DNA of 58,089 bases, counting the filler, from Sluysia triapertura (Eukaryota), in the NCBI GenBank assembly GCA_046118255.1. It is 4 parts of 4 records of this genome, joined end to end, with 100 filler letters (N's around TTAATTAATTAA, not from the genome) between each part and the next. Parts side by side here need not be neighbours in the genome. Positions count along the whole stretch, not along the records: positions 14,826 to 30,370 come from JBJNIA010225572.1; 3 more parts are not named here. The stretch is one strand, 5' to 3'. A program made the position numbers and the translations under genes. Below the pieces are notes generated by a model. That model was given only the letters and a program-made list of their open reading frames with translations, was not told the DNA's origin and did not search any database. Every line of letters begins with the position of its first letter. Position 1 is the first letter of the stretch. This document shows, piece after piece, positions 2,993 to 49,026 of the stretch.

Positions 2993-3122
2993 TTTAGGGT
3001 TAAGGAAAGCCTAATTTCTACAAAAATATATTTGCTGTTTAAATAAATGTTTTCTTAAGCTTCTGTTTTCTGCTGTTTAAATAAATGTTTTCAGCGGAAA
3101 TTAGGCTTGCCTTAATTCTAAA
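2993..3122. mobile_element. Small MITE (~130 bp) with ~26-bp imperfect terminal inverted repeats
   Basis: Left end TTTAGGGTTAAGGAAAGCCTAATTTC matches the reverse complement of the right end (TTTAGAATTAAGGCAAGCCTAATTTC). Internal direct repeat TGCTGTTTAAATAAATGTTTTC occurs twice. Confidence 0.7.
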
Positions 3123-4660
3123 TAATATAATAAATGTATTCCAGAATCATACATTTACATTCCATTTTAAATCAGCACCGATTTTTTTGTATCATTTTAA
3201 TACATAATTTACGGCAAAATTATTGGGCAGATGCGGTTACAGTATACGATTTATGAAGTACCTGTAACTATAAGAAGCAATTTTAACGTTCAACTTATCT
3301 ACCAACTTTCAAATATTAATCAGCCTAAAATTAAAGGTCTAATATGCATAATCAACTAAATCGAAATCTCAATTTATTATCTAAGTTGACAAGGTAAGTT
3401 AACAATATGTACGTTTACCTTATGAGGGGATTTCTATACAATTGTTCTAAAAAATCAAAAATAACAATCAAGGGTGGTTTTTTAATATTTTCATGTACAA
3501 AAAATAAATAGAGTATACAAGCAATAACGAAAAACTAAGTAAGCAAATTAATATTTCAAATTTTAAAATTAAAACCTATAAAGGCACTTAATTTCGAAAC
3601 ACTGATTTTAATGATATATTTTTTTCCTCATTAAACCGGAGTTGAGAAAAATTCTATAAATAGAACGGCCAATTAAAATTTATAGAATTTTCTAGAATTC
3701 TAAAAGACTATTTTTATTTGTTAGAAAACAATTTTTTTGGAAAATTAACTCTAATTTTGCATTTTTTAAGATTTTAAAGGATTGTGATGACAACCTAACA
3801 GTTCTTTCTAAGGTAGAATTTAATTTTAAGTCTAAATAGATTGAACTCAGACTAATAACAAATATAAATTTTTTATTTTTATAATCATAATAATGTCAGA
3901 ACAGAAATACATAAAGAAGTAAGAAATTTCATATTAAAGGTAACTTTAAATAGATTAAATTGGAGTAATAATAAATATTAATATTTTTCAAAAATAATAA
4001 ATTGTATAAAATATAATAATTTAATGTAATAATTTTTCAATATAATGTAGTGACATTATATTGATATACACATTATGATTTTATGTTATGTATATTTATA
4101 GAAACACACTGACAATATTGATTTTTTATTATTTTAAATATTATTATTGACTTTAAATCTATAATTATTTTAGAAAATTAATTTAGAACTAAATTATATT
4201 ATCAATCTTGGAAGTTTAAATTTCTAAATCAATGTATGTAATTTATTTTCAAAAAAATTATTAATTATTTTTATTTTGTTTAAATTAATTATTTATTCAA
4301 TTACATTTTGTAAGTCAAGGTTAATACTAAAAATATATAAATAGTTAAATCTCACACAACAAAAAACATATAACATAATAAGAATAACATCAGCAGATCG
4401 TCAACAAAAACGTCAACGGCAGTAACGGTAACAATCACAGCATTCATTAAAATTAGCCTTTGTATAAAGTTCTTTAAAAAACGATTCGTTAGTTTAATTT
4501 TGATAAGTTCTTTATACATTTGAGTATAGCGCAAAATACAGGTAAAATGTTTATTAAATATTTCGGAACTATTTCAAAGCTCCCGCGTAAAATATAATCA
4601 AAAACATATTTATATATTATTATTAACTTTTTAGTTAATAATGCAAAATTATTATTATTA

Positions 4661-6835
4661 TTATTTATATTTTTGTTTGTTAATAACATTATTATAAACA
4701 TTAATATCATTTTCGAATAAATTAGTGATTACGTTTCTTTTGTTATTAATCAATCGAAATTTATATTGTTTTAAAATATTAAAATCAATCATTGTGTTCA
4801 AATTTTCCGTAAAATTATAATTAACTTTGTAAAATATTGTTTGAAATCTTAAGAAATTCTGCAAGGAATTTGTCATAAATTTTTTAACTGATAGAAAACT
4901 ATATTAAAGAGATTTGATTGCTTCGATTAAGATTTGACCCCATACACTTGTCACCTTTAAAATCAAACGGCTAGAAGACAATCATTCATATCCTTTATGC
5001 GTAAGATAATAAATTAATAAAATTTATTAATATTAATAAAATTAAAACTTTAATATTAATAAAAAATAATTTTAAAAAGGCTTAAAAGCTTTGATTTTCA
5101 TTTCGAACTAAACCTTTTTAAGGTCAGTGAAAATCAAATTATTATATAAAACGTTGATGCGCATTAAAAAGATAAAATAATTATGCCAAGTCATTATAGT
5201 TTATATTTGAAAACTCTTCAACAAGTTTATTTCTTAGTCATTTACTAATAAAAACAATGCATGTGTATTACATATTTCAAACCAAAACTTATTCTACTTT
5301 CGATAATTTACGTTAGATTTACATGTTTAAGATTTACTACGTTTAAAATAATTTTGAAATAATCCTTAAAATCTTTTCATTAATTACCTGATGCTATATT
5401 TTAAATGACAACTTAAATATAATTTTTAAAAATATAACAAAATTCTCGTTATAAATTTGTAAAAGTTTTACTATTTGATAAAAGAACTTTTGCTTATTTT
5501 ATTATTGAATTAAATTCTTAACCTCCAAAATTATTAATTATTGCGCGATATTTTGTCGTCCTCTTTTAAAAAAAGTATATACTAACTTACATAGTTGTAA
5601 ACTATTAAAATCCGTTGAAGTGTATATTTTGTTTGTCTTCTTAAAAAGACAATGAACTTTCATTTTCACATCCTATTTTAAAGGACTTAAATTTCTTTGT
5701 TAATTAATCTAGTAAATGCGAAGAATATAATCATTAGCGAATTAAGGACTCAATTTAAATTACGTTCGACTTAATAAAAATTAGTTTTGTTTTAGTAATC
5801 ACAAATATAAGTATTTAAATTAAGTAAACATAGGGGTATATTTCTCCTTCATAAGTAGATATTTTGTTCTTTGATTGTAAATCCACTGGACAAGTCCTTA
5901 AATGCGTAAGACCTGGATCACAGGAAAAAACACTGATATAAAATTAAAAACTTAATTATGATTGTAAATTTTTCATTAATAATAATTATTATTATTATTA
6001 TTAGACACGTTGTCTTATTGGATATAAATGAAGACAATACCATAACACATTTCGTCAAGTAGGTTAACTTTTAGTGTACGAATTTACAAAAACTGCAAAA
6101 CGTACTGGAAACCGATTTTTTAAACTCAACTTAAACAATTTTTATGAACAATCCTACTATCTAAGTACGATTTTTTTATTTATAAAAATATTACTATAGT
6201 GATTCATAAAAAATTTTATAAATGTTAGATATAGATAACATTCGTCGGTTTTGACCATTAATTTAAATGTTAGATATATCTAGCATTCGTACACTAAAAG
6301 TTAAAAGTCAAATATTGCAAGCTTTATAATATTGGTACTATTTTTTTTAATTAAAAACTGCTATTTTATGTCTGTTAACATAATATACTAACATACTGCT
6401 ACATAGTTTATCGATTCCCCAATATTTGCAATAATTCGTAAACAATATTTATAAATTTATTTATTTATTATTTTATGTTTAAATACTTTTTTATTTACTT
6501 ATTTAGCTTTGCATGATTAAATATATAATTAATAAATTTAAAATTTAGGTAACCTTTTTAGGTTCTTTTTTGAATATCATAGGAACATAATCCATTTTTA
6601 GATTGCATCGACATTGTGGCGGTTCTTTAATAATCTTGCTTATACTTTTCTTTTCTCCAGCGTTTTGGAATTTATTCTGTAATAGAAAATATTGATTATT
6701 AATTCTTTATTAACCGTAAAAAAATAATTGTAAATTATCATTATTTTAGTAATAATAATAATAATGATTAATAATAGTAATAAAAAATACAGTGAAAAAC
6801 CATAAGTAGATTGGTGATTGAAAACCATCTGACAT
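4661..6835 (-). pseudogene. Multi-exon gene of unknown product, downstream exons apparently disrupted
   Basis: ATG at 6835. Exon 6835-6791 (MSDGFQSPIYLWFFT) ends in GT; AG-flanked exon 6676-6554 continues in phase (NKFQNAGEKKSISKIIKEPPQCRCNLKMDY...). Further exon-like blocks lie near 5930-5830, 5700-5590 and 4965-4690, the last with an in-frame TAA. No family recognised. Confidence 0.4.
6068..6300. mobile_element. piggyBac-type MITE with TTAA target-site duplication
   Basis: TTAA|CTTTTAGTGTACGAAT ... ATTCGTACACTAAAAG|TTAA: perfect 16-bp TIRs flanked by TTAA (6064-6067, 6301-6304). Lies in a probable intron. Confidence 0.85.
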
Positions 6836-7188
6836 TACAATCACACAAAAAATTAATGTACGAAATAAACTATGAACTCAATTCAATTATCCATGATCTT
6901 AGTCATTCATACCACTACTATTAGTACTACCACTCTTGCTATTATTATTACTTCCATAACTATCATTACTACTTTTGCTAATATTATTATTCTTTCGGCT
7001 ACTATATTATTATTATACTATGATAATATTATTGATATTATTGATACTATATTATTATTATTAACATTATCATAGTTTATTTATATTATCACTATTATTT
7101 TATTATTAATATCACAATTATTTTTGTTTTATATTTATTATTATTATTACAGTTAGTATTATTATTACTATCATTCTTATATTATTGT

Positions 7189-7360
7189 GCTACCATCAGC
7201 AGTTTTGACACTATACGTCACATTTTTCATTATAGTGCCAATAATGATGATGGTCGATCATCAGTCTTATCTTACTGATTTCATAATAACAATTTGTTTA
7301 TACTACCTTATCAGAGTCAATATCATTAAATTTACTTTCTAATACTCTGATTGGGCAAGC
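7189..7360 (+). promoter_or_regulatory. Double-dyad module, copy A (61-bp inverted repeat plus CCAAT-type dyad)
   Basis: Arms 7193-7215 / 7231-7253 pair at 19/23. Second dyad has arms ATCAGAGT / ACTCTGAT. 7341-7360 is identical (20/20) to the reverse complement of 24624-24643. Confidence 0.75.
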
Positions 7361-7489
7361 CAAATAACAAAATACACTAAAACAAAAAACAGCACAATTA
7401 TTAGTTCCATAAAACTTTTAAGTGATATTTTCGGCAAAATTGCAAAATTCACCCAAATCATATCATTCTCTTCTAACCACCAATAAATT

Positions 7490-11114: not shown

Positions 11115-11405
11115 TGTATGGAAATCACATCTAGATTTCAACACTTCGTCGCATAAAAACATTTCTTACATACACAGAACATTAAATAAACTACTTAACT
11201 CATTTAAAAAACAAACAGTCATTGTACATAATTGTCATGAATCATAGTTATTGTTATTATAAATCCAATCGTATTAATAATTCTTATAATTTCGCATAAT
11301 TTTTTATAACATCACAATATCATCAACATTATTGTTTTTAAATATATAATAATTATGTTATTGTTCCTTTTATTTTCATAATTCATCTTCATTTCCTTTT
11401 TTGTT
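11115..11405 (+). mobile_element. TGTA-terminus leader repeat, copy I (paralogue of 19615-19903)
   Basis: Starts TGTATGGAAA and is colinear with the minus-strand copy starting TGTAGGGAAA at 19903, including an identical 17-mer AAATCCAATCGTATTAA (11261-11277 / 19776-19792). Confidence 0.75.
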
Positions 11406-11786: not shown

Positions 11787-13099
11787 TACTGATTCCTCAA
11801 ACTAGTTCCCAAATTACTACTAATAACAACTCAAACTTTATTACATAAGCCTTAAGATGGACAGCAACTTGTTCTCGAAGTCCACCACATAACAATGTGC
11901 CGGCAATACATCAAGTGACGAATTAATTTACATACCTCATAGTGGAGTTTGTGCGCCTAATGTAAATTCTAATGTGATATAACCTATTGTACCCATTTTC
12001 TTTATGCTTGAAAATATAAAATAATAAATAAATGAATTATAAAAATAAATCGAAATAAAATATTGATTTAAATTATGGGAGAAATTAAGTATGACAAAAT
12101 GATGGTTATATTAATATCAATATCATTTGTGGAATTAAGTAACTGCGAAGACGTACAAGTTACTTCTTTAGAGAAAGAGGTATTATTAAATTATACCTTT
12201 AAATATTTGTATGGATTTCAAGTTTCAATAAATATGTCGTCCAATGTTTCTATCGAAAGTAGTTCATAATTTCTAAGTCAACATTTGACGGCAAAATGTA
12301 CAAATACGATACATGGTTACTGGTCTGTTTTAATAATTATTTTTCCATTTTATTAATAATAGATAAGTAATACTCAAATACTATTGTGAGTTTAATGAAA
12401 ATGAAGTATATGCTTTAAATTTCACTCTTAAATGTCCACACAATGTGTTCTGCTCCAATATCAATTCCCATTTTAATAGAAAATATATTATGACGTTGTA
12501 CCAAATTCTATAACTAATATAAAAATGATTTATCAATTACACTTTGTAAATATGTAAATATTTCATGCCTGTTCTATATTTTCTGAAATGATCTATAATT
12601 GTTCATTTTATTATACTTTTGAAATGCTTACTTTCAATGTAATTTTATGTAAAGATGCTATTCATGAATTTATTTACATAAACGTTACCAATTGGGACGG
12701 ATTATACTTTTGTTGTTTATTTTAAGTTCGATAAAATTAATTCTACGATTAAAATATTTTAAACTAAAAATGAATCACAAATAATTCATATTAATTCCGA
12801 AAATTGCGAAATTTTATATCGTTCCGTATTATTTAATTGGGAAGGGTTATCATTGGTGGTAGTTAACGATGACACTATTACAGCTCCGGCATGTAATTAT
12901 CCTAATCGAGAAATGCAGTTTAGTATGTTAAATGAAACCAGATATGATAGTACAGTAAAATTGATGTGATTTGGAACAATTTGGTGTTCTATCGAAAGCT
13001 TAGCTCTTACAATAAGATATGAAAATAAAAATATCACTCGAACGCAATTGTTAAACATTCCAGATGCGAAATACATGTTTACAGTTAAGCTTTGTCAAG

Positions 13100-13298
13100 C
13101 TGTTGATTTTTTTATCAAAAACTATTGAACTTGATGCTCGAACTGTGGTCCTCCAGATTTGGAACAGCAGGCCAAGAGCGGTTCCATTCTCGTAGTGTTG
13201 CATTTTATCGGGGTGCCAATGGCTGCATGCTAGATTACGATGTTTCACAATTAACAATTTTACACAATGGTACGATGAGTTTTTATTACAAACAACGG
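13100..13298 (+). pseudogene. RAB7: Rab7/Rab9-family small GTPase fragment, frameshifted
   Basis: FLSKTIELDARTVVLQIW / TAGQERFHSRSVAFYRGANGCMLDYDVS / QWYDEFLLQ against the Rab7 consensus [44 protein letters not shown]...WRDEFLIQ. Frameshift at the Asp of WDTAG; no P-loop recognised. Confidence 0.9.
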
Positions 13299-14019
13299 TT
13301 ATATACATTATTGTACTACATATTTTTTTGTTTTCGAATATAAATGTAAATCTTGTTGGTTTGTTCTTAAAATTGTTTTTTTAAAAGCCTCAAGCCTATT
13401 TTATTAACTTGTTTAATTGTTGCTAAAAAGTTTAATATTTTGATAATTAGTTTTGTAAAGTTTAATGTTTATAATAATTTTTTAAAAATATAACAAATAA
13501 AAAGCCTCCAAAGTTTGTTTGAGAGTTTCACCCATCAGATGAACCATAAAATCTTGTTTCATTTTGCATAATTGTTTGTCATAAAATACAGAAAATGTAT
13601 AGTTTAATACTTCTGGTAGTCTTTTGACAATAATCCTGCACTTTTATTAGACATAATAAATGTTTCCAGAAAATAATAAAATATAAAAATATCGAGCCTT
13701 CTGATAGAAACTAAAACAGTATTATTTTCATAAAGACCGAGCTAATTATCTTCAGCATAGTATCAAAACTTAGTCGTTCTAAATTTACGATACTTTTTAT
13801 TGATGTCTTGCTGATACATTTTTTAAAATTATATTGATAATACTGGCGAAATAAAAATCAATTTTTATATAAAATTTTTGATTTATATGTAAGGGCCAAG
13901 TTGGCCTAATTTTTGAATATTTCATTTTTTAACTTTAAGATATGAATAAAATTTGTCTCGTGTACATAATATTTACTAGGATTTATTATTAATGGGTTTG
14001 GAGAGCTATTAAACTTAAA

Positions 14020-14825: not shown

Positions 14826-15838
14826 TACAATATCGACTTAATTTTGATTTTTATTGTCGGGTGTTTAAATTTTGGGAATAATAATTAGTGATACCATAGA
14901 GAGAGTTATTAAAAAATATATTTAATAAATTGACTATTAAAACTATCGAGACTCCTTTAAGTCATATTGAGTGGTAGGAGCCAGAAATTTTTAAAGACGC
15001 AACAATTTTTGACTTTCTAAAGATACTCTATTAAAATCATTTGTACATATTACTATACTAGCTCATATAAGTGGTTTGACGTTATTTTTCCATTTATTAT
15101 TAATTTTTGATTTGATTTTACCTTGCTTATGACGACTTATAAAATCTACTAAATTACTAAGCTGATCTACATCTAATAACTTGATTGCATAATCAGAAAC
15201 CCAGAAATGAATGCCTCTTCTTTCAGAAAATACCCACAAAATATGTTTGAAACCAAAGTCTTCATTATCGATATTATTTTAGTAAAATCTTGTTCCTTAT
15301 TTTCAATATTAGCATCGTTACTATCATGTTCTTGATTATTGTTACTTGAATTTAATAAAATATTTTCATTTGGTAATCTAATTTGGAATGGTAATTTCGA
15401 ATTCAGTTGTGGAAGTCATTATATTCATTATGTAGGTTTGATTGTTTGAGAACTATGATCTACAGTTGATACTCGTTTTACGAAACGCTTGTCTATTATT
15501 AAATCTAGATAATCTAATGTCTTTAACAATGTGAGCATGACTGACTCGAAAATTATGCTTTTTCTATTTGTAAATAAAATATTAGCAGCCATTCTGATTT
15601 ATTTGTTAATTATAAAACACAACAGTTATTTTAAAGTTACTAAAGACATGAAAATATGATTTAAACTATCAAATGATTGAAAAAATTCATGTTTATTCTA
15701 CGCAGTAAAATTAGAAAATCATGAATCGTAACGAATTCTCATTCAACCAGAGTGATAAAAATAATGAACAGAGCTGCTCTGGTTGGACGACCAATAATAG
15801 TACTAATTGTTTTTAACATTGACATGTCAACCCAAGCC

Positions 15839-15910
15839 ACTATCAATGGGGATCGAACCCGGGACCTCTAGCTACACAGTTCGATGCTCTACCACTGAGC
15901 TATCAGCCCC
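15839..15910 (-). mobile_element. tRNA-derived element (SINE head or tRNA pseudogene)
   Basis: GGGGCTGATAGCTCAGTGGTAGAGC...AGGTCCCGGGTTCGATCCCC has an intact D-arm/A box and a B box, but the acceptor and anticodon stems do not pair. Confidence 0.75.
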
Positions 15911-17160
15911 GTCTAACAATTTTATATTTCTATAGTCCATTATACTATAAGGCACTTTAGGACTTTTACCCCAACAAAACGAATTAAAAATGTCAGCATT
16001 AATTAAATAGTTTGGAATAAAAATGATGATAATAATGAAATCTTATAAATTAATAGTAATAATTTTGTATTTTGAAAATAATAATTTTGTTGGGATTGCC
16101 CAATTGTAGATTAGGAGATGAGCAAGAAACATATTAAATCATAAAATAAAGGAAGAACTTATACAAATCGATGGATTGAACATTATAAACATTGTTGAAA
16201 TAAGAATCACGATAAAGAAAACATGTATAATGATCCTAGAAGCTAAAGGATATCTTAAGGTTCTAAAGACCTATATAAGGGTTTGAGATCTTATGGAAGC
16301 TTGAGATGGACTTGAAAAACTTTTAGAAGCATTTGAACTCTAGAATCTTTGGATCATTGAATACCTTGGTAACCTTTAAGTATTCTTGAAATATCGATAA
16401 GCATTTGAGATCCTTTAGTAACCTTATAAAGTGCATAAAATCTTTAAAATAATTGAGAAATAAAATCTTTGTTCAAAACAATAAAGATAAGTTTAAAATA
16501 AGTTTAAAATAGTAATAATTAACATGAAGAAGTAGAAAAAGGAATCAGAGAAGTGAAGGTGAAAACATCTAGAGCCTCATGAATACCTTATAAACTACTA
16601 AACAACTTTAAAACCTCAATAAAACCTGTAAAAATAGAATAAGATTAAGTCTAAAAATAGATTAATTGATTAAAAATCATGAATAACTTTTGAATGCGAA
16701 ATGCTACGTCAAATTTGAAACTGTGTCTTTGTTTATTTTGAAAAGACCTTTCAATGAAGATACGGTTTGACCGAGTTCATGTAAGGAAAGCCATAATATT
16801 AAGCAAAGTCCAATTTTAATTAATTATTAATTATGAAATGTTGAATTTTTAATACTTAGAGTGATCCAAATATGATGAATGGAATACGAGATGATTGCTA
16901 TAAAAGAGGAGAATCCACAAGTGAACTTGAAATGTTTGTAAAGTAGTTCGTTTGAGAATAAGAACCTTAAAACCTTCTTCATTGGAAAATTGGGTGTGAA
17001 AATAGAAAATTAATTAAATAATAGAAAGTGAAATTAAATTCATTATTTATATGTATGTTAAGAATATTTTAATGTGAGAAGTAATTTACATAAAAATAAA
17101 CCGAATAGAGTAAAAGGAAATGATGTTTGATAATAAATCAGATTTCTTTTTTTTGTACCT

Positions 17161-17500
17161 AATTGTATTTGATTTTCAGCTATTTTAATAGACTCCCTAT
17201 GTAAATTTTCTTAAGACTATATTTGATTTTCAGTTATTTTTAAGATAATTAATTAAGAAACATTTCACATAAGTTTTGTTGAATGTTATATTTAAATTGT
17301 ATTTGATTTTCATTTATTTTAAGGAGGATTGATAAGAGACTCCTTACCAAATTTTTGTTAAGACTATATTTGATTTTTATTTATTTAAGGTAATTAATTG
17401 AGAAACAGTTACGTAATTTTTGTTGAAGATTATATTTAAATCATATTTGATTTTCAGTTATTTTTAAGGTGAATTGACTAGAAACACTTTACGCAATTTA
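17161..17500. repeat. Minisatellite with a higher-order (dimeric) unit
   Basis: Core TATTTGATTTTCAGTTATTTTAAG recurs five times, alternating with GACTCC...AAGACTA and GAAACA...GTTGAA spacers. Confidence 0.8.
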
Positions 17501-17943
17501 TTATATCAAAGTATTGAGTATTTTATCTTCAGACATTATTATTAAGTTTTTAATAGAAAGGAATTATTATCAAGGAATTTCATTATTTTCGTCATCATTC
17601 TTTGTTATGCTACCCAAAAATATTTAAATAACAAAATTACTATTAATTTTTAGTGTTTGTTGCGTCACTCCTGGTTGTTTTGTCTTAATTAGATTGTAAT
17701 ATCTTTGATTTTATTATAAACATATTGTTATTTTTGTCGGTTTAGTGATTCTCAGCATTTAGTAAAGAATTTTATTGATAATAAATTATATTACGAATCT
17801 TTGTTTAATAGTACATTATTGTCTTATTTTTGATTTTGATTGCCAGGAACTTAAATTTGGGGATAATAGTTACTAATATTATCAAAACGGATTACTGCAA
17901 TAATATATTTGATGTACTGACTATTCAAATTATTAAGGTTCCT

Positions 17944-18980
17944 TTAAGCTAACCAAGTTAATATTTTTAAAGACGCAACATAACTAATATTAGCTTTTTT
18001 CGATAAAACATTTGGAAAAGTATTCCTACTATGAAAATTAGATTTCGATATATTTAATTGATTATTAGAACCTAATTCTGAAACGACATTCCAAGAACTA
18101 TTACCAGTATCAGCCGAACTAGATATATCTGAATCTAAAGCCTTATCATCTTCATCACAAGTAACAGAATTCGTTGTATTAATGTTAGAGCTGCTTTTTA
18201 TTGATATGTTTCCAATGTTATTTTCTATCAATAAACATTCATTAATTAAATTATCATCATTTAAATTATTTGCATAATTTTCTTTAAAAGAATCACTTTT
18301 TAATTCATCTAATGTTGTAAATTCAACGTGTTCACTTAATTCAACCGACTTTTCCATTTTTCTCGTTTAACGTTATTATTTAGTTTTACTTTCTGATTGT
18401 GATTATTTGTTTCCTGAAAACAAGAACAGCAGAGTCTTTGACGACCACAATTGAAATGAAGTAACGTCTTACGATTATCGAATAATTTAACGACAGAATA
18501 TTTCGGTTTAGACATTTCTTATAAATGTTCAAAGCAACTTATTTTTTATTTTCATTTGATTCCTATTCTAAACATAAATGATTGAATCTATAATAATATT
18601 TATTAAATTTATTAAAATTTTAGTTTTAAATTTATTTTTATTTTTATTATTTTTAAATAATTTTTTGTAATTTCAGGTTTCGTTAAAGGTGATAATGTGG
18701 AATTTTGGTAGCAAGGTGGTAATCTTGAATCAGGAAATAAACTTGAAAATACGTTAAACAATTTAGATCTATTTTTCGAATTTGTATTTGTTTTGGAATA
18801 GCATTTTCAGCAGCTTTAATATTTTCTGATGCTTGATCATTTTTCCATGTTACATCAAAAGATTTGAATAAATTAAGATTTTCTTAATGGAAGTTACTTA
18901 TATTTTGTAAATAATTTACTGAAAATGAATTTGGATTTTTAGTTTTAAAATCGAACAAATATGGTTCAGAGAACTTTACA
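17944..18980 (-). pseudogene. Degenerate coding region, unknown Ser/Asn-rich product
   Basis: 137-aa ORF 18357-17944 plus upstream coding-like blocks broken by stops and frameshifts; no family recognised. Confidence 0.35.
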
Positions 18981-19614: not shown

Positions 19615-19903
19615 CAAAGAATAAGAAAAATTGAAGGTAAAGATAAGAGAAATAATAATGATAATAATAACGTATTTATTGTATATTTTTAAAATAATGC
19701 TGTAATAATATTATTATAAAAATTATTATACGACAATCATATTATAAATAATAAAGACAATAATTATTATATATCTTAATACGATTGGATTTGTAATAAG
19801 ATTATGTTTTTTGAATGAATCAAGTAGCTTGTGTGATGTTCTATGTATGTATGAGATGTTTTTATGTGATGATGTGTGATGAATTTTATATGTTTTCCCT
19901 ACA
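19615..19903 (-). mobile_element. TGTA-terminus leader repeat, copy J
   Basis: Colinear with 11115-11405; begins TGTAGGGAAA; upstream of the GPCR relic on the same strand. Confidence 0.75.
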
Positions 19904-21429
19904 ATCCTTTTCTTGAACAATCTGAACATGCTAAACAAGTCACATCATGATGGTTAGAACAACCCGAAGAAGATATAACAATTGCAAGAATCATGGTTAA
20001 ATTATGCTCAATCATTGAAAACGAACTAATCAACAAATTTTCATAGCGAATATTGATATTTTACTGCGTTTTAATACATTTTGTTATTTCTTAATTTCTT
20101 TGCCATCAGTGGACAGCATGGATATAAAATGTGTGTCGAACATATTTTGTTCTTATCCTGACTGCGACACGAATATGATGAATAGTGAAACTAAATAAAA
20201 AAGAACGATTTAAACATAACGAACTTAAAACACAAACATGATGCTTCCACACGCGAACCAACAAACCAAGTAAAGTCTACTGAAACTCAGATAATAAAAA
20301 ATATCAAAAGTATTAAAAGAAATTGAAATGAAAAATGTCAATGAAAACACAAAATAGTCTTCTGAAGTATTTAAATGTGAAAATATACAAGATTATGATT
20401 TGAAAGGGATATTGGATCAAGTTGTAAAGGCTCATGATCACATATGTAATTCTTAAGTTGCATTAAAATTGATACGTAATTATGTCGTTTAATTATTATT
20501 TGTTTTATTACATATGCTATCGAAAATGATTAATGTTTCAATTTATGATTACAAATTTTTGCCATTCTTTCAAGTTAACTTTCTCTTGTTTTGTATCACG
20601 AGGCTTAGTTTTAATTTACTAATAAGTATTTTTCTCATATCACTCGAATTTGTTTTATTCTCTGCATGTTTATCACGACTAGAGACGTTCTTAGCCGATA
20701 AACTAAAAATAGAATATTATTGTTTTTGAAAATTGCAATGTATTGAAAACGTTGCTTGTTTTTATAGAAATAAAAATTATATTATATTTCAAAATCATTC
20801 TTCTAAAGATGTTGACGCGATTAAAGCATACCAAAATGTAGAATATATTTTTTCATTGAATTACACACACTTATTTCTTACTCGGTGAATGATTGCACGT
20901 GAGCGAACATTTCCTGAGATCTATGATTGGAATACACTTATTAATTATAGTAAACAATTGATAACAACATTCATTATTATTATTTATATTTTTCCAATTG
21001 TTGTGTTGAAAAATGAATTCAACCTTTGTTATTTGTTCAATTTGTTATTTACAAAAGGCTTTAAGCCTACTTTATTAATGGTTTTAAAGTTAAATTTGAA
21101 TTGTTTTTGTTAGGTAAATTTTTAACTTTTTTAATAAAAAATTAAAAACAAAATTTAATGTATCCATTAATTGCTATAAAAGAAAAGAGATAAACAAAAA
21201 TAATTATAAATTTCGAATATTAAAAGATAAAAAGCCCACTCCACAATCACAGCAATTATATTTTAAACTAACGAAGTTACTGTAGTAATCAAATTGTCTG
21301 ACAAAAGTTAATTTATTTAAATAATTCTCTCGAATTTTTGCTTTTATATTTTATAAGTTTTATAATCAACTTATATTTTTTAGTTTCTTGTAAATAGTAA
21401 GTGTGTTGTTTTCTGTCTTTTTAATTTTA

Positions 21430-22414
21430 TTAGCTCACCAACCAAAATCATGGTTTCGATTTGGTACAGAAATGGTATTCATGCGTGATTGGACATGATT
21501 GGTAATGGTTGGAAATGATTGGACGTCCACACTTGAATGATAATAATAGAAATGAGATTGATTGGACATCCAATCAAACAAAAATAATCATGAGACAACA
21601 ATTTAACCTTATTTACTAACAATGTCAGTAACAATCAAAAAGAATAACAAAGCTGTCAAGGATGACAGTATAGATAGTGGTAATACCACGAAATAACGAT
21701 TTAATTAAAAATATTGATGATTATAGTAATTATAATAAATAAACGAAATAATGATTATAATAAAGTAAAATACATTTAATAAAACACAAATCTTTTCTCT
21801 TTCTGTCAACATAATCTGTCTTTAAATGACTTTCTCTTCTTAACATAATATTTATTTTACATACTAGTGTAAATTTTATTCTGATTGTAATGTCTAAATG
21901 GTTTCAAATTGTTAATTTAATGTTTTCAGTGATATTAGAGATTGAGTGTTAAGGATTATAAAGCTAAAGTATTTTGAATTGATTTGAAGATGTCTATTCG
22001 TTGATTTAGGATGTAGTTGTGATTCTAATGTTGGGAGATAAAGAATAAAATGTTTTAAATAAATTTTGAATGTAGATTGGTGGTTTTGACTGAAGAAAAG
22101 GTTTGGACATTGAAAACTTGTGAAATAAAAACGTTTTGAATACAATTTAATGTGCATTAATGGTTTTGAATGGTATATATGATGTTGGAGTTTTTGAATT
22201 GTAATTTTAAGATGCTTTGAAATGAGACTAGGATTAGTTGATCTGAAAGAAATAAAATATGAAAAATGTTTTGATAAATTCGAAAAGGTAGTTATATAAT
22301 GTTAACTAATGTTATTATTGTAATGTTATGGAATTATGAGTAGGGAATGTTTTTAATGAATTATTAAATGTACGTTATTAAAATAAAATTTTAAAATATG
22401 GGTGAGCCAACACA
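21430..22414 (-). mobile_element. Divergent long-leader unit, copy D, ending in a CCAAT-box cluster
   Basis: Begins TGTGTTGGCTCACCCAT..TTAAAATTTTATT (compare TGTAGTGGCCAACACCCACAGCTTAAAATTTATT at 25703). G-poor tract, then TAT-rich tract, then five CCAAT/ATTGG motifs at 21488-21574. Confidence 0.55.
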
Positions 22415-23073: not shown

Positions 23074-24458
23074 TTATAAAAGATGGCCTATTACATCGTA
23101 ATTAGTTTCTGCCATGATATTAATAAGTTTACTTATGTATATAACTGTATTATATTTCGACATTCTTTCCTTACAGATTTGACTATATCTGAACTTATTT
23201 GCTTTATAAATCTTACATAAATTTCCGGATTGAATACATCTACATATTAATTCATTTATTTCAAATATTAATTCATCATTAATTCTATGCTTATTTAATT
23301 CAAAACGAAATATACAAAGTGTTTTATTTAACAAGTAACAAAGTAACGTTTTAGAAACATGAAGACTAAATTTATTAGAATAATAAATTATTAAAATTTT
23401 AAAATTGAAATCGTCAATAATAAAAATTAAAAATGTAAAATGTTTCATTTCATCGTCAACCCCCATTTCCCACCAACTTTTCTGCTGCATTTCGCGGATC
23501 CACCTAAGATATTTACAAACTAAATTAAAAATTAATAGATATATAAAATTAACACTCACTAGGCCACCCCTAACACTAATCATGATGTACTCGTTAAAAC
23601 TTGCAGATTGATCACCACCAAGTATGTCTACGGCATTATCATTACATTGTGATCGTAAATTCAGTGAATATGATCCAAAGTCTAAATTTGTTTGATCATC
23701 ATCATTATTTATTAATGAAATTTGATCCGAATAATCATGTTTATTCAAATAGTCTAATTTGTCAAACAAATCTTTCATTTCTTCAAGATTCACATTTTGA
23801 CACCCGTGACTTATGATCGAATTGGTCTGAATTTTAGTTTTTATAATTGATTTAGCGCACGCTTTGTTTTCTGACGAACTCTTATAAGGAAAATTGTGAT
23901 CCCTGTCAGGACACAAATCGTATTCATTACTTAAAATAGTTTCTTTATGATTACTAAATAAAGCTTTATTTTTCTTCAATGATTTTGTAGTTCCGCTTTA
24001 GATAGATTAGTAATAATAAATTGAGAATTCATTCCAGGAATATCTATTGACATAAATTCATTTCTTACATCAGTATTGGTAACAATTTGATCGATAAAAT
24101 TGATCGACACTAATGAATTATTTCGAATATCAAATCGTAAAGTTCGTGTTAAGTTGTGCAGAAAACTGTTCATAACTAAATCTCGATAATTTTCATCTTT
24201 CTCTTTATCGAATGAATAATGGTAATATGGCAAAGTAGTAATGTGATTGTTTGACCATGATTTCATGATGTTTAATTCTGTATTTTTACATTTATCTTCT
24301 TCAAAAACTACGTAAAATGAACTGCTGGTAACATTTTTTTGTTCAAGTACTGACATAGTTACTTTTTCATTGTCTGGAGTATAGAACATTGCTACACTGT
24401 TTGGAAAAGAGTCAAACGTTTTATAATCTACGTACTTTTGGTTAGTAATGAGCAACAT
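23074..24458 (-). pseudogene. Best-preserved member of the unknown ORF family (copy B): two overlapping ORFs probably split by a frameshift
   Basis: ORFs 24458-23976 (160 aa) and 23979-23074 (301 aa) abut. A 40-nt GTGAG...TTAG segment lies at 23559-23520. No RT, integrase or transposase motif seen. Confidence 0.55.
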
Positions 24459-24623
24459 CGTATAGGATTATTTTAAAAATTAAAAATTGAAATAATTGAA
24501 CTGAGAATTCTCCTTTAAAAATGATACTGAATTTTACTAATTTTAATTTTTTTTAAATTTTTAATCGTGACTGAGTATTTTGTATAATCATAAAAATTTT
24601 AATTTTTCTATCAGTCTAATTTT

Positions 24624-24787
24624 GCTTGCCCAATCAGAGTATTTGTGAGAATTGTCAGTAATTTATACTCTGATTGGGTAATGAATAAAATCTATTAAAA
24701 ATTAATTTTAGATTACCAACCGTCATCAGTACTGTCACTCGAATGACACTTTGTAACAGCGTTATAAGTACTGATGATGGCAGCAAC
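24624..24787 (-). promoter_or_regulatory. Double-dyad module, copy B
   Basis: Arms 24720-24733 / 24767-24780 pair at 13/14 (61-bp span). Perfect 14-bp arms CCCAATCAGAGTAT 24629-24642 / 24665-24678. Confidence 0.8.
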
Positions 24788-25703
24788 TATTTTAGCAAAA
24801 TTAAATTAAAATTAGAAATTAATATTTGACTGACAATAATAATAATAACAGCAATAAGATTACTGTTATTATCATTATTGTTAACAAATAAAAATGACAA
24901 ATCTTTTCTTGAACAAAATACACGACCTTTTCTTTCGATATCTAATATTTTTCTTACATATAAAATGATAAAAGAAGCAAAATTGATGACATGTTGTGAA
25001 AGAACAACGGTAACGAGGTATATTACGTCTCGGTTGTCGTTGTTGTTTCATATTGAGATAATGTGTTCTCTAAAGTTTTATTGTATTTATTTCTAAAGGT
25101 AAAGAAATAATTTGATTTGTATTTGAAACAAAAAATGTTGGAATAAATTATTAAAATTTATTAAAGATTTGTGATTGAAAATAAAATTAATGTCTTGAAT
25201 CTGATAGTTTGAGATGCTTATTGAAAGGTTGTAGTTTATTTAGTTTTAAACGACGATCACAAAATAAATCTTAACGTATCTGTAATGTTGTTAAGAATAG
25301 ATGTTGATGATGAATATGTGTAAATGAAATAGATTTAGTTTGGTATAGTTGGTAAAAGATTTTAATGTAAATGTTTTCTATTTCTGAGGTAATTGTTAGC
25401 GTTGTTGAATGGTGTTATTGTATTTATGATTTGTGTATTATAGCTTTGGAGTTAATGTTGTGGGTTATTCGAGATTATTTATTGGAGTATGTTGTGAAGT
25501 GGATGGTTGAGAGTGTTCGTAGAATTGTTGATATATATGAGTTGAAGAGATGTTATAAATGTCGAGTGTTATTCGTGGTGATTGATTTGGTGTAGTTCGA
25601 TAGTAAGAAGTGTAATTGTAATTATATTTTAGTGAACTTTTGAGTTATGGATGTTGAGTGTAAAGTTTTAATAAATTTTAAGCTGTGGGTGTTGGCCACT
25701 ACA
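24788..25703 (-). mobile_element. TGTAGTGGCCAAC-terminus long leader, copy B
   Basis: 16-nt identity with 34029-34044 at the terminus. Colinear shared blocks with 34032-35220: ACTCGACATT, ATGTCATCAAT, TTTATATGT, CGAAAGAAA, GTTGCT.CCA. Confidence 0.8.
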
Positions 25704-26149: not shown

Positions 26150-26443
26150 CTGTCCCGAATGATGTTCCACGTATTTCTCCCGCTACGCTACTTTTAGTTC
26201 GTTGACAATCGCAGTGTCCTTGTTCACATTCAGAGTTAGTGTTCCAAGGGATCCCAAGATGTTTCCGATTCGATATAGATGATCGACGTTCTGTAAACAA
26301 TTGGTGTATGAAATCATTAGTTCATCCAATGTATGGGCGTCTATACAACTGTTCCCATATTTGATACAATTTCCTTTTTGGTCAGCATTGAATAGGCACA
26401 TTCCTCTTTTGATGTCTTCACCAAAGAGTTTCACATAAATCAC
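26150..26443 (-). pseudogene. Unkempt-like CCCH zinc-finger fragment
   Basis: IKRGMCLFNADQKGNCIKYGNSCIDAHTLDEL fits the Unkempt finger pattern YKTG.C...TD.KGNC.KNG.HC.FAHG..DL. A shifted frame gives a further Cys-rich relic (PWNTNSECEQGHCDC). Confidence 0.65.
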
Positions 26444-26927
26444 ATTGTGATTCAGCTGATGATGTTATATCATTATTGTTACTAAGATAAAGTGTGTCTT
26501 TAGTCTTTTCTATCGTCTCCAAACTAGCTTTATCATTTAATAATGTTAAAGAATTAAATACTGAACTTTTATTAAGATTCTCTGTCATTTCTCGTAAAAA
26601 GATACATTCACATGCTTCATTGGTCGACTACAAATATCTTGTCAATGTCCAAAATTGTACCGATCATCGAAAGTGTAAGAATTAATGAATAACATTTATT
26701 ATGAATTGCACACGATTTGTTTGAATTTATACATACACAAACATTCATAATGTATTATCGATTAATTTGTAATTTATCATTTTAAAAATTGATTATTTGG
26801 AATTATAATTATTATTTTAATTTATTATTATTTGAAACTAAAAGTACGTTTTATTGTTGTTATTGTTTTTAATTAATTTTAATTTTTATTATTTTTAATT
26901 ATTTTTAATTAATAATTATGATTATTC

Positions 26928-27657: not shown

Positions 27658-29010
27658 TGGCGCCCGATTAATTTTTAAGTGATTATGGTTACTCTCTTGG
27701 AGTTCATGATGATATATTAAAAGTTATTATTGTTTAAGATACACATTTTAGTTATTCTACTCCCAGTAAGACTATTAAAAGAAAAATAGGTAAGGATTAC
27801 TTTAACCATTCATTTATGGATATTAATGACAATAATAATCTTGAGAATAGAATTATTGATACTGATAATGAACAACCAGATTCAAATGGCAACTCAGATG
27901 TAGAAATATTAAAAAAGGAAACAAATACTTAACAAAGATTACTTATGATAGCGATAAAGGTTAATTAGATACAAGATGTTTAATTTACACCTTATTGTGT
28001 GATAAGTTTGATAATTTCGGTAAGTATAAAATATTATTACCTAATATTAAGGATTATAAAATACTATTGATAAAATAACGCAACATTTATAGGAAAAATC
28101 AGAGATAAGGACAGAAGTGAGTATATAAACACGAGACAATGTAATTAGTTTCAGGTAAACAGATTAATACCAGCTTAAATAGAGAAAAACTCAAAATGTA
28201 ATTGTCCACATATTATTTCAGTGCGATAATACAAGACTTCTTACTAAAGAAAAAGTAGATAAGATGATATATCTTACAGACAAAAAGTTATGGAATGAAA
28301 ATCAAGGTTTTTGGGAAGATATAATTAAAGAAAGAGAAAAATTAAACTCTGACGAAAATTTCAATAGGTTCACAGATATATTAGAAAATAATAACATTAA
28401 ACAATATAGTACCTAGGTTAAGTACTACTAATAATATGTTATATGTAATTTTTTTGCTTGATATGCTTGGTATGAATAAGACAAATGGAATTAAGGCATT
28501 TGACTACAGTAGACAACTAATAGATCGAAAGTTTTCATTGCTCAACATGGAAGATTGTCTAGAGTCTAAATCTAATAGAGTATTCATTAATGATAGTAAA
28601 ATACTAAATGTTTATCAAGGTAATTTAATAAAAACTCTAGTAAGAGAATGTTCAATAAAAAGATCAGTTGTAACTTGGTATTGTGAACAACATATTCAAC
28701 ATATCAAACGTTTCAAAACCGTTCTAAATATCACCCAGTAATTGTAGGGATGCATTCGAAACTGGTTAAATAAGAAAGAAATAAGTTGAGAATAAAATAT
28801 AGTGACAGATAATTTGCAATGTGCGGACTGCAGGAAATGTATTATTAGACGGAGCATGAAGTTAAGATATACCATAACGTTTTGGCACAATAAACATGCG
28901 TAGTGGATCTAAAATCTTTTAACGAAAGTTTAGACAAATAAAAAGGCACTATGATGTCACGTTCTTTTTGTAAAATAGACTAGCTGCGACATAGGAGAGT
29001 CTATATTGCT
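27658..29010 (+). mobile_element. Possible highly decayed Gypsy-type LTR retrotransposon internal region
   Basis: TGGCGCCCGA (27658-27667) is the tRNA-Lys-type primer-binding site. KILNVYQGNLIKTLVRECSIKRSVVTWY resembles the integrase core (.I.SDQG..F.S.L.K.L....GIK.S.T.PY). No RT motif seen. Confidence 0.4.
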
Positions 29011-34031: not shown

Positions 34032-35215
34032 TGTAGTGGCCAACCTTTACAACCACTAAAATTTTATTAAAAATTAATATCTTCTCTTATCTTCATACTT
34101 TAACAATAATACCTTTCATCTCTTACATACTTTCTAAAATCAATCCATATCCACAATTCCACAACATACAAATCGCAATTACACCAGACATTACTAATTT
34201 ACATCAACTAATCCACTAAAAACATGTACTCGACATTCATAATAATCCAACAACAAACACATTCGAGATAATCTGCTCAATACTTTCGAATCCTTCATTT
34301 TATACTACACTTTAATATTTAATACTTAATATTTAACAATATTTATTTAATAGTTTTTTTGCCTAAACTAAATCACAGTCACAAGCTTATAACACATAAA
34401 CCACAATTACATTTAATACCATTTGATAACACCAGCAAATCTACTTGAAACATATAAAATACCTACTTCACATCTCCGAATCAATTACAACATCTTAATT
34501 TCATTATTCGTTTATGCATAATCACCACCAACACAGTACATCAACACAGTATAACAACACCAAAAACATCAAACAAACAAATCACACAAAACATTGTACA
34601 ATAACATCTTAATTATACCAAGAGTTGTGTTGTAGTTGCACTTTTAGATTTATGAAGTTGCAATCTTCTCAATAAATCTTCCGACATTTAAATCTTGTTT
34701 TCAATTGTAGACTTCAATCAGTATCTAAGAACTCATTCTAACATTATCTGTTTCATCTCACGATTCAAATCACTTATTATATCTTCAAAGGTTAATTATA
34801 CTCATTAATTCTTTCAAAAAATAATTATTACTCAGAAATTTAGTCCCAAATACATTTTTAATTTATTTAATTTTTGTTAGAAATCTTTATGAATTTAAGG
34901 AAGATCGTGTAGGTTTTAAAGAATTCAATTGTATGTAATAAAATAACGACAATAATTCGAGCATAGTGCACCTTTTTATTGTCGCTATTTCTTTTTATGT
35001 CATCAATCTTTATTTTATTTTATTTCTTTATATGTCAAGAAATAAGTAAGACGAAAGAAAGTTCATGTTAGATTGATAATGAAGGAAATTTATGCATTAT
35101 TTTTTAATTTTCTTTTTAATAATAATAATAATAACAATATTGTTATTTTTATTATTATTTCCGAATTAATAAATGAACAATTATTTAATTTTTAATTTTA
35201 ATAAAGTCACAATTG
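34032..35215 (+). mobile_element. TGTAGTGGCCAAC-terminus long leader, copy C
   Basis: Colinear with copy B; strongly G-depleted first ~600 bp; ends AATAAAGTCACA just before the dyad module. Confidence 0.8.
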
Positions 35216-35390
35216 GTTGCTACCACCACCAGTGTTGATACTGCTCGTCACAATCTTCATTAAAGTGTCAACATTGATCATGGCCAATCATGAGTAATCA
35301 CCATTTTTGTGAGTGAAGTTTCTTTCTCTAAATATCATCCAATCAGGACTAATATAATTTAATTTTCTGTTTGGAAGCCCTGATTGGATG
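35216..35390 (+). promoter_or_regulatory. Double-dyad module, copy C
   Basis: Arms 35223-35242 / 35264-35283 pair at 15/20 (61-bp span). CATCCAATCAGGACT 35336-35350 / AGCCCTGATTGGATG 35376-35390 pair at 14/15. Confidence 0.8.
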
Positions 35391-35574
35391 ACCAACTAAA
35401 ATTCGAGTGCTAAAAAAGAAGCACATAATTTTAAAAGTTCCGGATTTAAATTAACACTAACGATAAATCAGAATTTGCTGGCAAAAAAAGAAATTAGACA
35501 AAAATAATAGAATTAAAGCTTTTTAAAAAATCAGCTACGTACTGTTAATCTAAAATTTCCAGCATAGTGATACT

Positions 35575-45900: not shown

Positions 45901-46516
45901 GATAAAAAGCAGGTGGTCGAATGAGATTATAGTGGTGCAATAAAGGCAGTTTGAGTAAATTTCCTTTAGTTAGAAAATTTCCTTTAAAATGTAATGCCCC
46001 AAGTAAAGAAAGGGCGTGAATAGTGTATTTTTGTAACGATGTGAGGTAAAACATGCCGCAGTTTGATTATGTGATAAACATAATGAGAAATTAAGAAAAT
46101 TTTAACTATGTGGTAGAAATGCTTGTTCAGATTAGAACTAAACAAATCAATTATTTTATTTGCATAATTTTTAAAACTGATGATTATCATATTCTTATGA
46201 GCCTTAAGGGCTATTACATGATCTAAATGACGTTTGATTTACTTAAAATAAACAATGAAATTATTCTTTTTAGCCTTAAGGGCTACAAAACTATTTAAAT
46301 AATTTTGATTGATAAAAAATAAACAACAATTAATTTATTCATTGAAGCATAAAACCAAATAATTTCCAATCTTAAAAACATAAAAAATTTAAATTTTCCT
46401 TTAAAAGTAAAAGTACTAACGTAATGTTTTAAAATATTATAGACAACAAAATGAATTGTTTCAAATTCTAGATGTTACGAATATATTTAGATAGTAGACA
46501 TTGACTAAAACTGATT

Positions 46517-47628: not shown

Positions 47629-48287
47629 TTAAACAAGTAAAATTATTCGTAAATATTTTATTTTATTCTATTATTTGTGACAAAATAAAATTTTTAAATT
47701 AAAACATTTTCTAAAACTTCAAATTTACAATATACATAATTCTTAATTTATATCTTTGCACTTCCGTTTTGATTATTATACGTCAACATTTGGTTTACAT
47801 TTACGTTTAAATTTTAATTCAATCTGACATTTGGCAATATTTACGAATTACATGAAAATATAAGTTAATGATAATAATTAATAAATCCTAAAGTTTATAA
47901 ATATATTTTGTGAATGGCATGTTATAATTATTAGTGTATAATAAGATTTTATAAAACTTTATAACAATGTTTATAAAATTGTTACAATAGATACTTATTT
48001 ATTTAAATTATTTAAATTTTATTTTATCTAGCTGAATAAGCAATACTTATTAAGAAATAATTTAAAAAGTAAATATAATAATAATAATAATAATAAAAAT
48101 TAATAATAATAATACATTACGTGTTAATTTTAAAACATTACTTTTTCATACAAACTGTTTTTAGAAGCTACACAAAACTTATTATTTTTGTTCGTAAATT
48201 ACATTAAATTTATATTTCATTATTTTTTTACAAAAAATCTTTATATTTAAATTTATTTAATTAAGAAAATTCAATTTTACAAATTAG

Positions 48288-49026
48288 AAAAAACAACAAA
48301 TCGTTTACAACGAAACAGTTTGGTGATCCATTGAAAGACAATACTAACTATAATGATGGTACTAAAGATTCGAATATCCACGGTAACCGTACTTCAAATA
48401 CTAAATCTACTTCCTTTGTAGTTACTATGGCTGGCTGTGTATTTGGTTTTATCATTGTTGTTATTAATCTTCTTTTATTTTTATTGTGTTATAAAAGGCG
48501 TCAAGAAAGACCAAATGATCAAAATTTAGACGAACATGTTCGTCGACGAAATGAAAATCGAGTTTTAGGAAGTAATATATTAAGAGTTTTAAATGGTTCA
48601 AAATCGTTTAAGAGAACAAGAAATCAAAATCAGAAATTAAAATCAAAAAAGAAAAATGTGGAAAAAAATGCAGAAATGAAAGGAAAATTATTATCAACTA
48701 TTAGTGGTCATTCAAATGAAGGCAGTTCGACTAATGTTTTAATGATGACGTATTTAGGAGGGTTGGCTGGAGGAGAACAAGGTAATATAACTGTAGGAGA
48801 GAATGCTGGCTTTGACGGAGTTATATATCCCAGTATTTCTCAAAACAGAGATACAGAAATGTCTAAGTTAGAACTATCAATAACAAATAAAGGGGATAGT
48901 CACATATCTACTCCGTCGAATGCTTCTTTCTTTTCTGGAACCAATTTATTGTCTGATCTCCAAAATCAATTTGATGCTAATTATTCTTCCATTAATAGAG
49001 GTAAATCTAACAAATATCTAAATTAA
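48288..49026 (+). CDS. Terminal exon of a type I single-pass membrane protein (TM helix plus cytoplasmic tail)
   Basis: The frame is open from the AG acceptor at 48287 (KNNKSFTTKQFGDPLKD...). TM segment FVVTMAGCVFGFIIVVINLLLFLLCY is followed by the stop-transfer KRR. Upstream exons not identified. Confidence 0.7.

What the first reader, a model, noticed from the sequence alone, without database searches (positions are those of the whole stretch)
24624..24787. Structure-conserved double-dyad module present on three different contigs
Seen: 7193-7253 (+), 24720-24780 (-) and 35223-35283 (+) are each an imperfect inverted repeat spanning exactly 61 bp and starting GCT(A/G)CCA. Each is followed 42-55 bp later by a second dyad spanning 48-49 bp from CCAAT (CTTAT in copy A) to ATTGG. 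The arm sequences differ between copies (CAGTACT/AGTACTG vs CAGTGTTGATACT/AGTGTCAACATTG; CAGAGTAT vs CAGGACT), yet each copy stays self-complementary, which looks like compensatory change. Inference: selection acts on symmetry and spacing, as for a recombination site, replication origin, RNA packaging hairpin or paired NF-Y promoter. It marks a dispersed element family I cannot assign to a known class.
Basis: partly seen in the sequence, partly recalled or inferred. Interest (0 to 1): 0.85.

Follow-up and report, generated by a model that had tools for sequence, protein, structure and literature searches.

The report
Likely solo LTRs with paired hairpins
The double-hairpin module is real and lies at one end of a 1.0-1.4 kb repeat scattered through an AT-rich genome that is likely an animal's; the repeat is likely the leftover long terminal repeat (LTR) of a retrotransposon, so likely a new family of a familiar kind of mobile DNA.

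Summary
Three copies on three contigs carry a 61-bp imperfect dyad, followed 42-55 bp later by a 48-49 bp CCAATCAG...CTGATTGG dyad. The second dyad changes on both arms together (5 double changes in 17 pairs, B vs C; at most 2 of 1500 neutral simulations per setting reach 5). The first dyad does not beyond chance (0-2 per pair). The module is not free-standing: B and C are collinear over 1.1-1.4 kb, and two more relatives occur (D, diverged; H, second dyad only). Best reading (0.55): solo LTRs of a Gypsy-like retrotransposon with a palindrome-rich U3. No target duplication, primer site, polypurine tract or gag/pol was found, so membership is unproven. Paired changes could come from hairpin selection or from template-switch homogenisation; four copies cannot tell. 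No genome or read data were available.

The parts
24590..25703 (+).
   Evidence: collinear with copy C, local score 280 vs locally shuffled mean 80, max 108; three segments each exceed all 359-365 real-window controls
24626..24681 (.). B dyad 2, paired CCAATCAG boxes, 16 of 17 pairs Watson-Crick
24720..24780 (.). B dyad 1, 61 bp, 14 of 21 pairs
24833..24881 (.). B AAT/ATT low-complexity hairpin
24956..24964 (+). B TATA-like 9-mer, identical in C; promoter role inferred
24982..24992 (+). B 11-mer identical in C, 26-28 nt after the start of the TATA-like block; start-site role inferred
24998..25049 (+). B hairpin H0 (52 bp, 14 of 17 pairs, 2 double changes vs C), just after the inferred start site
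25250..25703 (+). B G/T-rich tract with AATAAA at 25670-25675 and a 13-bp end block identical in C (25691-25703)
34032..35425 (-). Copy C, 1394 bp: start block 35421-35425, dyad 2 35335-35391, dyad 1 35223-35283, TATA-like 35027-35035, 11-mer 34997-35007, H0 34940-34991, AATAAA 34063-34068, end block 34032-34044
6420..7396 (-). Copy A, partial: dyad 2 7303-7358, dyad 1 7193-7253, expanded TAT tract; weak match to B back to about 6420; no G/T-rich tract or end block
21402..22414 (+). Copy D, diverged relative, 1013 bp: 7-bp terminal inverted repeat, CCAAT-rich palindrome cluster 21486-21576 in place of the two dyads, G/T-rich tract, AATAAA 22382-22387
   Evidence: z 4.2 vs B and 5.7 vs C over the whole element, though the terminal 300 bp alone give only z 0.8 and 2.2
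15739..15790 (.). Copy H, dyad 2 only, 52 bp, last T of CCAAT changed to C on both arms
   Evidence: arm-matrix score 28.1 vs best of 100 shuffled windows 21.6

Best explanation
The module is one end of a 1.0-1.4 kb dispersed repeat that is likely a solo long terminal repeat (LTR) of a Gypsy-like retrotransposon, with the two dyads likely forming a palindrome-rich upstream (U3) promoter region. Inferred: an integrase recognised the ends; transcription started about 30 nt after the TATA box and ended after AATAAA; the internal gag-pol part was lost by LTR-LTR recombination. The CCAATCAG cores would be factor-binding sites (NF-Y type), which explains why they stay fixed while their flanks change. 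The paired flank changes would have arisen in the replicating lineages before insertion, either by selection on a hairpin in the element's RNA or single-stranded DNA (about 55% within this model) or by template-switch copying of one arm onto the other (about 45%).
For: Larger repeat: B-C collinear, z 15; A-B 13; A-C 7.7; B-D 4.2; C-D 5.7 against local shuffles. The longest mixed-base collinear exact blocks between B and C include the end block (13 bp), the 11-mer, the AATAAA block (10 bp) and the TATA-like block (9 bp). AATAAA starts 34, 37 and 33 nt before the end in B, C and D and is followed by a G/T-rich stretch. These are the LTR features listed in PMC3601003 (abstract, passages, section 8 part 1): short TG..CA inverted ends, AATAAA, downstream GT-rich stretch, TATA-like stretch; in its Sushi clade AATAAA sits close to the 3' end. 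The end read inward is TGTAG in B and C, the TGTNR pattern of Gypsy LTRs and Ginger transposons (PMC2836005 passages). D has a 7-bp terminal inverted repeat. All 4 transition-type mismatches in H0 are G-U on this strand, and the structured 470-500 nt folds with a larger z on this strand in B (-10.0 vs -5.3) and C (-7.8 vs -6.3) (rough shuffle, 20 each). Palindrome-rich LTR cis-regions are known in Sireviruses (PMC4728375 abstract).
Against: No target-site duplication at the proposed ends of C or D; no TGG primer site; no polypurine tract. No gag, RT, integrase or transposase family among 150 of 163 stop-free segments of 52 aa or more, nor in read-through frames beyond A and C. The start is weakly defined: TGTGC in A and C is not TGTNR, C's ends pair over 3 bp only, B has no clear start, and A-C similarity after dyad 2 is not significant (z 0.5). 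The implied R region (about 700-950 nt) is far longer than the 10-150 bp examples in PMC3601003. AATAAA occurs 6-8 times per element on this strand, and the motifs were picked after the fact from two or three copies. Weak B-C similarity continues about 270 bp past the end block (5 of 374 real windows score as well). Over all stems the strand bias is not significant (7 G-T vs 15 A-C, p 0.13), and A and D show no strand preference. A's TATA-like block is degenerate.
Confidence: 0.55

Rival explanations
1. A non-autonomous DNA-mediated element (Helentron/DINE-1-like rolling-circle element, or a Ginger/foldback-type MITE) whose subterminal hairpins are nicking, termination or transposase-binding signals.
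For: DINE-1 has subterminal inverted repeats, a microsatellite, no ORF and a 3' stem-loop whose stem differs between species in a compensatory way (PMC2374699 passages). No target duplication here. D has a subterminal imperfect match to its own end (14 of 18) and repeated CCAATCA units. Ginger elements also end in TGTNR.
Against: No 13-bp subterminal repeat pair in B or C, and no 40-270 bp terminal inverted repeat in B, C or D. Dyad 2 is 48-57 bp with a loop of 18-23 nt, unlike the 7-11 bp DINE-1 stem. The end block is not T-flanked in C or B. It does not explain the conserved TATA / 11-mer / AATAAA order.
Confidence: 0.2
2. A host promoter block spread by segmental duplication: two inward-facing NF-Y boxes drive the ORFs that begin 140-190 bp after dyad 2 on the first reader's strand.
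For: CCAATCAG is intact in 5 of 6 arms of A, B, C. The change in H hits the last T of CCAAT, the one position where NF-Y is reported to tolerate change (PMC5216769 passage). ORFs of 134 aa (A) and 160 aa (B) start shortly after dyad 2.
Against: The downstream ORFs are unrelated to each other (tblastx; all-vs-all blastp) and found no relatives. Factor binding does not need symmetric flanks, yet 5 flank pairs change together. D and H have no such ORF. B, C and D share a far end 1 kb away that looks like an element terminus.
Confidence: 0.1
3. The structured end of a non-LTR retroelement (SINE/LINE- or Penelope-like), read on the first reader's strand, with dyad 2 as the stem-loop recognised by the reverse transcriptase and the A-rich stretch after it as a decayed tail.
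For: A and H keep only the dyad end while B, C and D are longer, a nested pattern typical of 5'-truncated insertions (recalled, not from a call); an A-rich stretch follows dyad 2 in all copies.
Against: No RT remnant; no Rfam family at gathering score, including hammerheads; a CTGAnGA core is absent from C on both strands; no tRNA B box follows the A-box-like start (read directly; ARAGORN found nothing).
Confidence: 0.07
4. An undescribed class of mobile or excised DNA in which the two dyads act as a recombination or origin site, like bracovirus host-integration motifs.
For: Fixed 61-bp span and conserved loop motifs in three copies; unassignable neighbouring ORFs.
Against: The CvBV motif arms given in PMC8460044 (passages) are not the arms seen here (compared by eye). 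No hit in viral contigs. Span and content vary in D and H. The flanks hold broken host genes, not viral genes.
Confidence: 0.08

Closest known systems
Solo LTRs of animal Metaviridae (Ty3/Gypsy; Sushi/rGmr1-like layout)
   Same: TG..CA ends, TATA-like stretch, AATAAA close to the 3' end followed by a GT-rich stretch (PMC3601003); TGTNR pattern at the conserved end (PMC2836005)
   Different: Implied R of 700-950 nt; ends pair over only 3-7 bp; no TSD, PBS, PPT or coding partner found; four hairpins with paired changes
Sirevirus (Copia) LTR palindrome region
   Same: Palindrome-rich, fast-evolving, hairpin-forming cis-region in an LTR (PMC4728375 abstract)
   Different: Plant Copia; built from many repeated motifs (recalled); no sequence relation tested or expected
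DINE-1 / Helentron non-autonomous elements
   Same: No ORF, microsatellite, stem-loops conserved in structure but not sequence, no clear TSD (PMC2374699)
   Different: No 13-bp subterminal repeat pair, no TT insertion context, much longer hairpins, TGT end
Ginger1/Ginger2 DNA transposons
   Same: TGTNR terminus
   Different: No 40-270 bp terminal inverted repeats, no 4-bp TSD, no integrase-like ORF

Membership tests
Solo LTR (Metaviridae) | TG..CA short inverted ends | tested here: inconclusive
   C and D begin TGT and end ACA (3-bp and 7-bp pairing); A has only the start, B only the end
Solo LTR (Metaviridae) | AATAAA followed by a GT-rich stretch near the 3' end | tested here: met
   33-37 nt from the end in 3 of 3 copies that have this end; the hexamer is common in this DNA
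Solo LTR (Metaviridae) | TATA-like core promoter upstream of AATAAA | tested here: inconclusive
   identical 9-mer in B and C; degenerate in A, not at this place in D; no start-site data
Solo LTR (Metaviridae) | 4-6 bp target-site duplication | tested here: inconclusive
   none at the proposed ends of C and D; the copies are too diverged and the starts too uncertain for absence to count
LTR retrotransposon (full element) | Two LTRs around PBS, gag, pol, PPT | not testable with these tools
   not seen in the window; no genome held
Ginger DNA transposon / MITE | Terminal inverted repeats of 40-270 bp | tested here: not met
   no terminal inverted repeat of 9 bp or more joining the two ends in B, C or D
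DINE-1 / Helentron | 13-bp subterminal inverted repeat pair plus short 3' stem-loop, TT target | tested here: not met
   best reverse-complement match to the end block scores 14-16 and lies internally in B and C; D has a 14 of 18 subterminal match
Penelope-like / retrozyme | Hammerhead ribozyme in the terminal repeat | tested here: not met
   no Rfam match at gathering score; core motif absent in C
NF-Y promoter | Intact CCAAT boxes bound by NF-Y near a start site | not testable with these tools
   boxes intact in 5 of 6 arms; about 310-360 bp from the inferred LTR start site; binding untested
Bracovirus host-integration motif | 8+5 nt inverted boundary motifs in a viral segment | tested here: not met
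   motifs in PMC8460044 differ from the arms here, by eye; no viral hits

The most novel reading that the evidence does not exclude
A family of non-coding mobile elements in a little-studied animal whose life cycle needs a fixed-geometry double hairpin (61-bp dyad with conserved loop motifs plus a CCAAT-armed dyad) kept by structural selection, serving as a packaging, strand-transfer or recombination signal and also as a two-way promoter for unrelated orphan ORFs beside it.
Probability: 0.12. Interest if true: 0.65.

Novelty: new member of a known kind. Interest (0 to 1): 0.3.

Why it matters
If the LTR reading holds, this is an unannotated retrotransposon family with an unusually long R and a hairpin-rich U3. 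That is useful for annotating this genome and, with more copies, is a clean system for separating hairpin selection from template-switch homogenisation, which both give 'compensatory' changes. It is also a caution: paired arm changes in three copies are not proof of function. It would matter more only if the copies prove to have no known autonomous partner.

Tried and rejected
Own genome: none held. Rfam and ARAGORN on the window: nothing. Pattern scans for the module: viral contigs 0 hits in 3 scans; metagenome contigs 0, then 2 hits to a looser pattern that lack the dyad and the second module and are chance. Neighbouring ORFs: none of 10 in the exact-match collection; B 160-aa ORF, no homologues, Atlas best 0.78, a lead only, no viral locus; B 307-aa frame, none; A 134-aa ORF, 2 hits that are sums over tandem repeats; the membrane-protein-like frame 48265-49023, none among longer proteins, so the host taxon is not pinned down. 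Sequencing runs: one holder at 0.53 of words, no RNA holder listed; no read-laying result was obtained, so copy number, boundaries and expression are untested. A covariance model of dyad 1 found no further sequence-alike copy: other hits were the reverse strands, generic hairpins of B, or E 0.2 and above (159 bases between the two ranges not searched). A read-through Pfam scan was run only beyond A and C, not on the whole window. Pre-miRNA reading rejected: arms vary and loop motifs are conserved. Coding reading of dyad 1 rejected: frames close within the module in at least one copy and tblastx is marginal. I first took copy H as evidence against NF-Y and dropped that. My first H0 count was one base out of register and was redone. 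Four other TGTAGT-bounded skewed tracts do not align to B or C (z 1.1 or less) and were left out of the family. Earlier scan findings: none returned. Literature searches (solo LTR / Gypsy / hairpin / CCAAT term sets) returned 0 papers; the library lacks most subscription journals, Repbase and Dfam, so this does not show the family is undescribed. No supplements were read.

Full report
Setting. The window is four contigs of 12-15.5 kb joined by artificial linkers, about 24% G+C. It holds fragments of a Rab-type GTPase, a primase small subunit and an Unkempt-type CCCH finger (Pfam), with stops or frame changes nearby. I infer an AT-rich animal; the taxon was not established. No whole genome is held, one sequencing run holds about half of the words around copy B, and no read-laying result was obtained. 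All family evidence therefore comes from these 58 kb.

Observation. Dyad 1 aligns without gaps over 75 columns and has 17, 14 and 15 Watson-Crick pairs in its outer 21 positions; 146 of 57,548 windows reach 14 and 2 reach 17. Dyad 2 has 11, 16 and 15 of 17. The span of 61 starts at CCA, 4 bp inside the quoted motif.

Paired change. Seven of 38 pairs change on both sides, 5 in dyad 2 and 2 in dyad 1; 0 of 500 shuffles reach this and slid partners give 0-2 (with the tool's caveats). In a simulation of independent decay from a perfect palindrome, 5 double changes in dyad 2 arose in at most 2 of 1500 runs at each of four divergence levels, while 2 in dyad 1 arose in 17% at the closest level. So dyad 2 covaries and dyad 1 is not shown to. 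In dyad 2 the CCAATCAG core is intact in 5 of 6 arms and the flanks change together. Paired change need not mean selection: template switching creates and repairs hairpin stems and homogenises inverted-repeat arms (PMC8794818, abstract and opening text; PMC8604942, abstract). Mismatches that would be G-U on one strand only are 7 vs 11 in the two dyads of A, B, C and H, and 7 vs 15 with hairpin H0 (p 0.48 and 0.13): no significant strand bias.

The module belongs to a larger repeat. B and C are collinear over 1.1-1.4 kb; three separate segments each beat all of 359-365 real-window controls. Gapped identity is 69%, against 62-66% for locally shuffled controls, so the copies are far apart. The 470-500 nt ending in dyad 2 folds far better than shuffles (z -8.2 and -5.6, 0 of 100 each) and adds two hairpins: an AAT/ATT hairpin and H0, which has 14 of 17 pairs in both copies and 2 double changes. 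Two more relatives lie on contig 2. D (21402-22414) aligns to B and C at z 4.2 and 5.7 and has a CCAAT-rich palindrome cluster instead of the two dyads. H (15739-15790) is dyad 2 alone, scoring 28.1 where the best of 100 shuffled windows was 21.6. A covariance model of dyad 1 found no fourth copy. A is partial: it lacks the skewed tract and the far end.

What it most likely is. AATAAA starts 34, 37 and 33 nt before the end in B, C and D and is followed by a G/T-rich stretch. H0 lies just after the inferred start site, and its 4 transition-type mismatches are all G-U on this strand. A, C and D start with TGTG about 40 nt before dyad 2 or its equivalent, and D's ends pair over 7 bp. This is the LTR layout described in PMC3601003 (abstract, passages, section 8 part 1), and the conserved end fits the TGTNR pattern of Gypsy LTRs and Ginger transposons (PMC2836005, passages). 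The dyads then fall in U3; palindrome-rich LTR cis-regions are known from Sireviruses (PMC4728375, abstract and opening text). Shown: the repeat, the block order, the dyads, paired change in dyad 2. Inferred: orientation, promoter and poly(A) roles, integrase ends, solo-LTR origin, NF-Y binding.

Against it. No target duplication, primer site or polypurine tract. No retroelement or transposase domain in 150 of 163 segments of 52 aa or more (the 13 left out were mostly low-complexity) or in read-through frames beyond A and C. The start is poorly fixed, B has none, and weak B-C similarity runs about 270 bp past the end block (5 of 374 controls as high). The implied R of 700-950 nt exceeds the 10-150 bp examples in PMC3601003. 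AATAAA is common in this DNA (6-8 per element on that strand), and the motifs were chosen after looking. I therefore give 0.55 and do not file it as a member.

Rivals. A DINE-1/Helentron-like or Ginger/MITE-like element (0.2): DINE-1 has a stem-loop kept by compensatory change (PMC2374699, passages), but the subterminal repeat pair and long terminal repeats are missing; IS481EU also ends TGT..ACA but has terminal inverted repeats and is reported from parabasalids (PMC10045372, passages). A duplicated host NF-Y promoter (0.1): ORFs start soon after dyad 2 in A and B, and H's change hits the tolerated last T (PMC5216769, passages), but the ORFs are unrelated to each other and to anything found. 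A non-LTR 3' end (0.07): no RT, ribozyme or tRNA head. A new recombination or origin module (0.08): no viral matches, and the bracovirus motif differs (PMC8460044, passages).

Novelty. No relative was found outside the window, no earlier scan note matched, and searches found no paper joining these terms; repeat databases were not available, so the family may already be catalogued. Verdict: a real feature, most likely a new family of a known kind. Interest 0.3.

Noticed in passing
window 6064-6304: 241-bp MITE-like element with perfect 20-bp inverted ends that include TTAA at both outer edges, as in piggyBac-type elements (family trait recalled)
   Followed up: partly
window 2980-3135: Short foldback element, 39-bp arms 85% complementary; strongest folding window in the part scanned, 1-43900
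   Followed up: no
window 15845-15912 (-): tRNA-like SINE head with A and B boxes just after copy H, seen by eye; ARAGORN did not call it
   Followed up: no
window 32019(-), 32068(+), 47628(-), 49972(+): Four more TGTAGT-bounded C/A-skewed tracts, two of them back to back 48 bp apart with 12-bp identical starts; they do not align to B or C and may be other LTR or transposon families
   Followed up: partly
window 11115-11365 (+) and 19663-19903 (-): A second dispersed repeat, 69% identical over 263 columns, on contigs 1 and 2
   Followed up: no
window 13050-13340 (+), 26186-26700 (-), 14826-15278 (-) and about 17812-17948: Broken, apparently intron-less host gene fragments: Rab-type GTPase, Unkempt-type CCCH finger, primase small subunit; the first 136 bp of contig 2 recur 3 kb further on
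   Followed up: partly
window 28436-28738 (+): Weak Pfam match to a Monjiviricetes fusion glycoprotein (E 0.006, below the curated cut-off); not recovered at E 0.001
   Followed up: no
window 23077-24458 (-): Two overlapping long orphan frames (160 and 307 aa) next to copy B with no relatives found; possibly one gene
   Followed up: partly
window 17206-17477 and 46190-46326: Tandem repeats with 144-bp (72-bp subunit) and 72-bp periods
   Followed up: no
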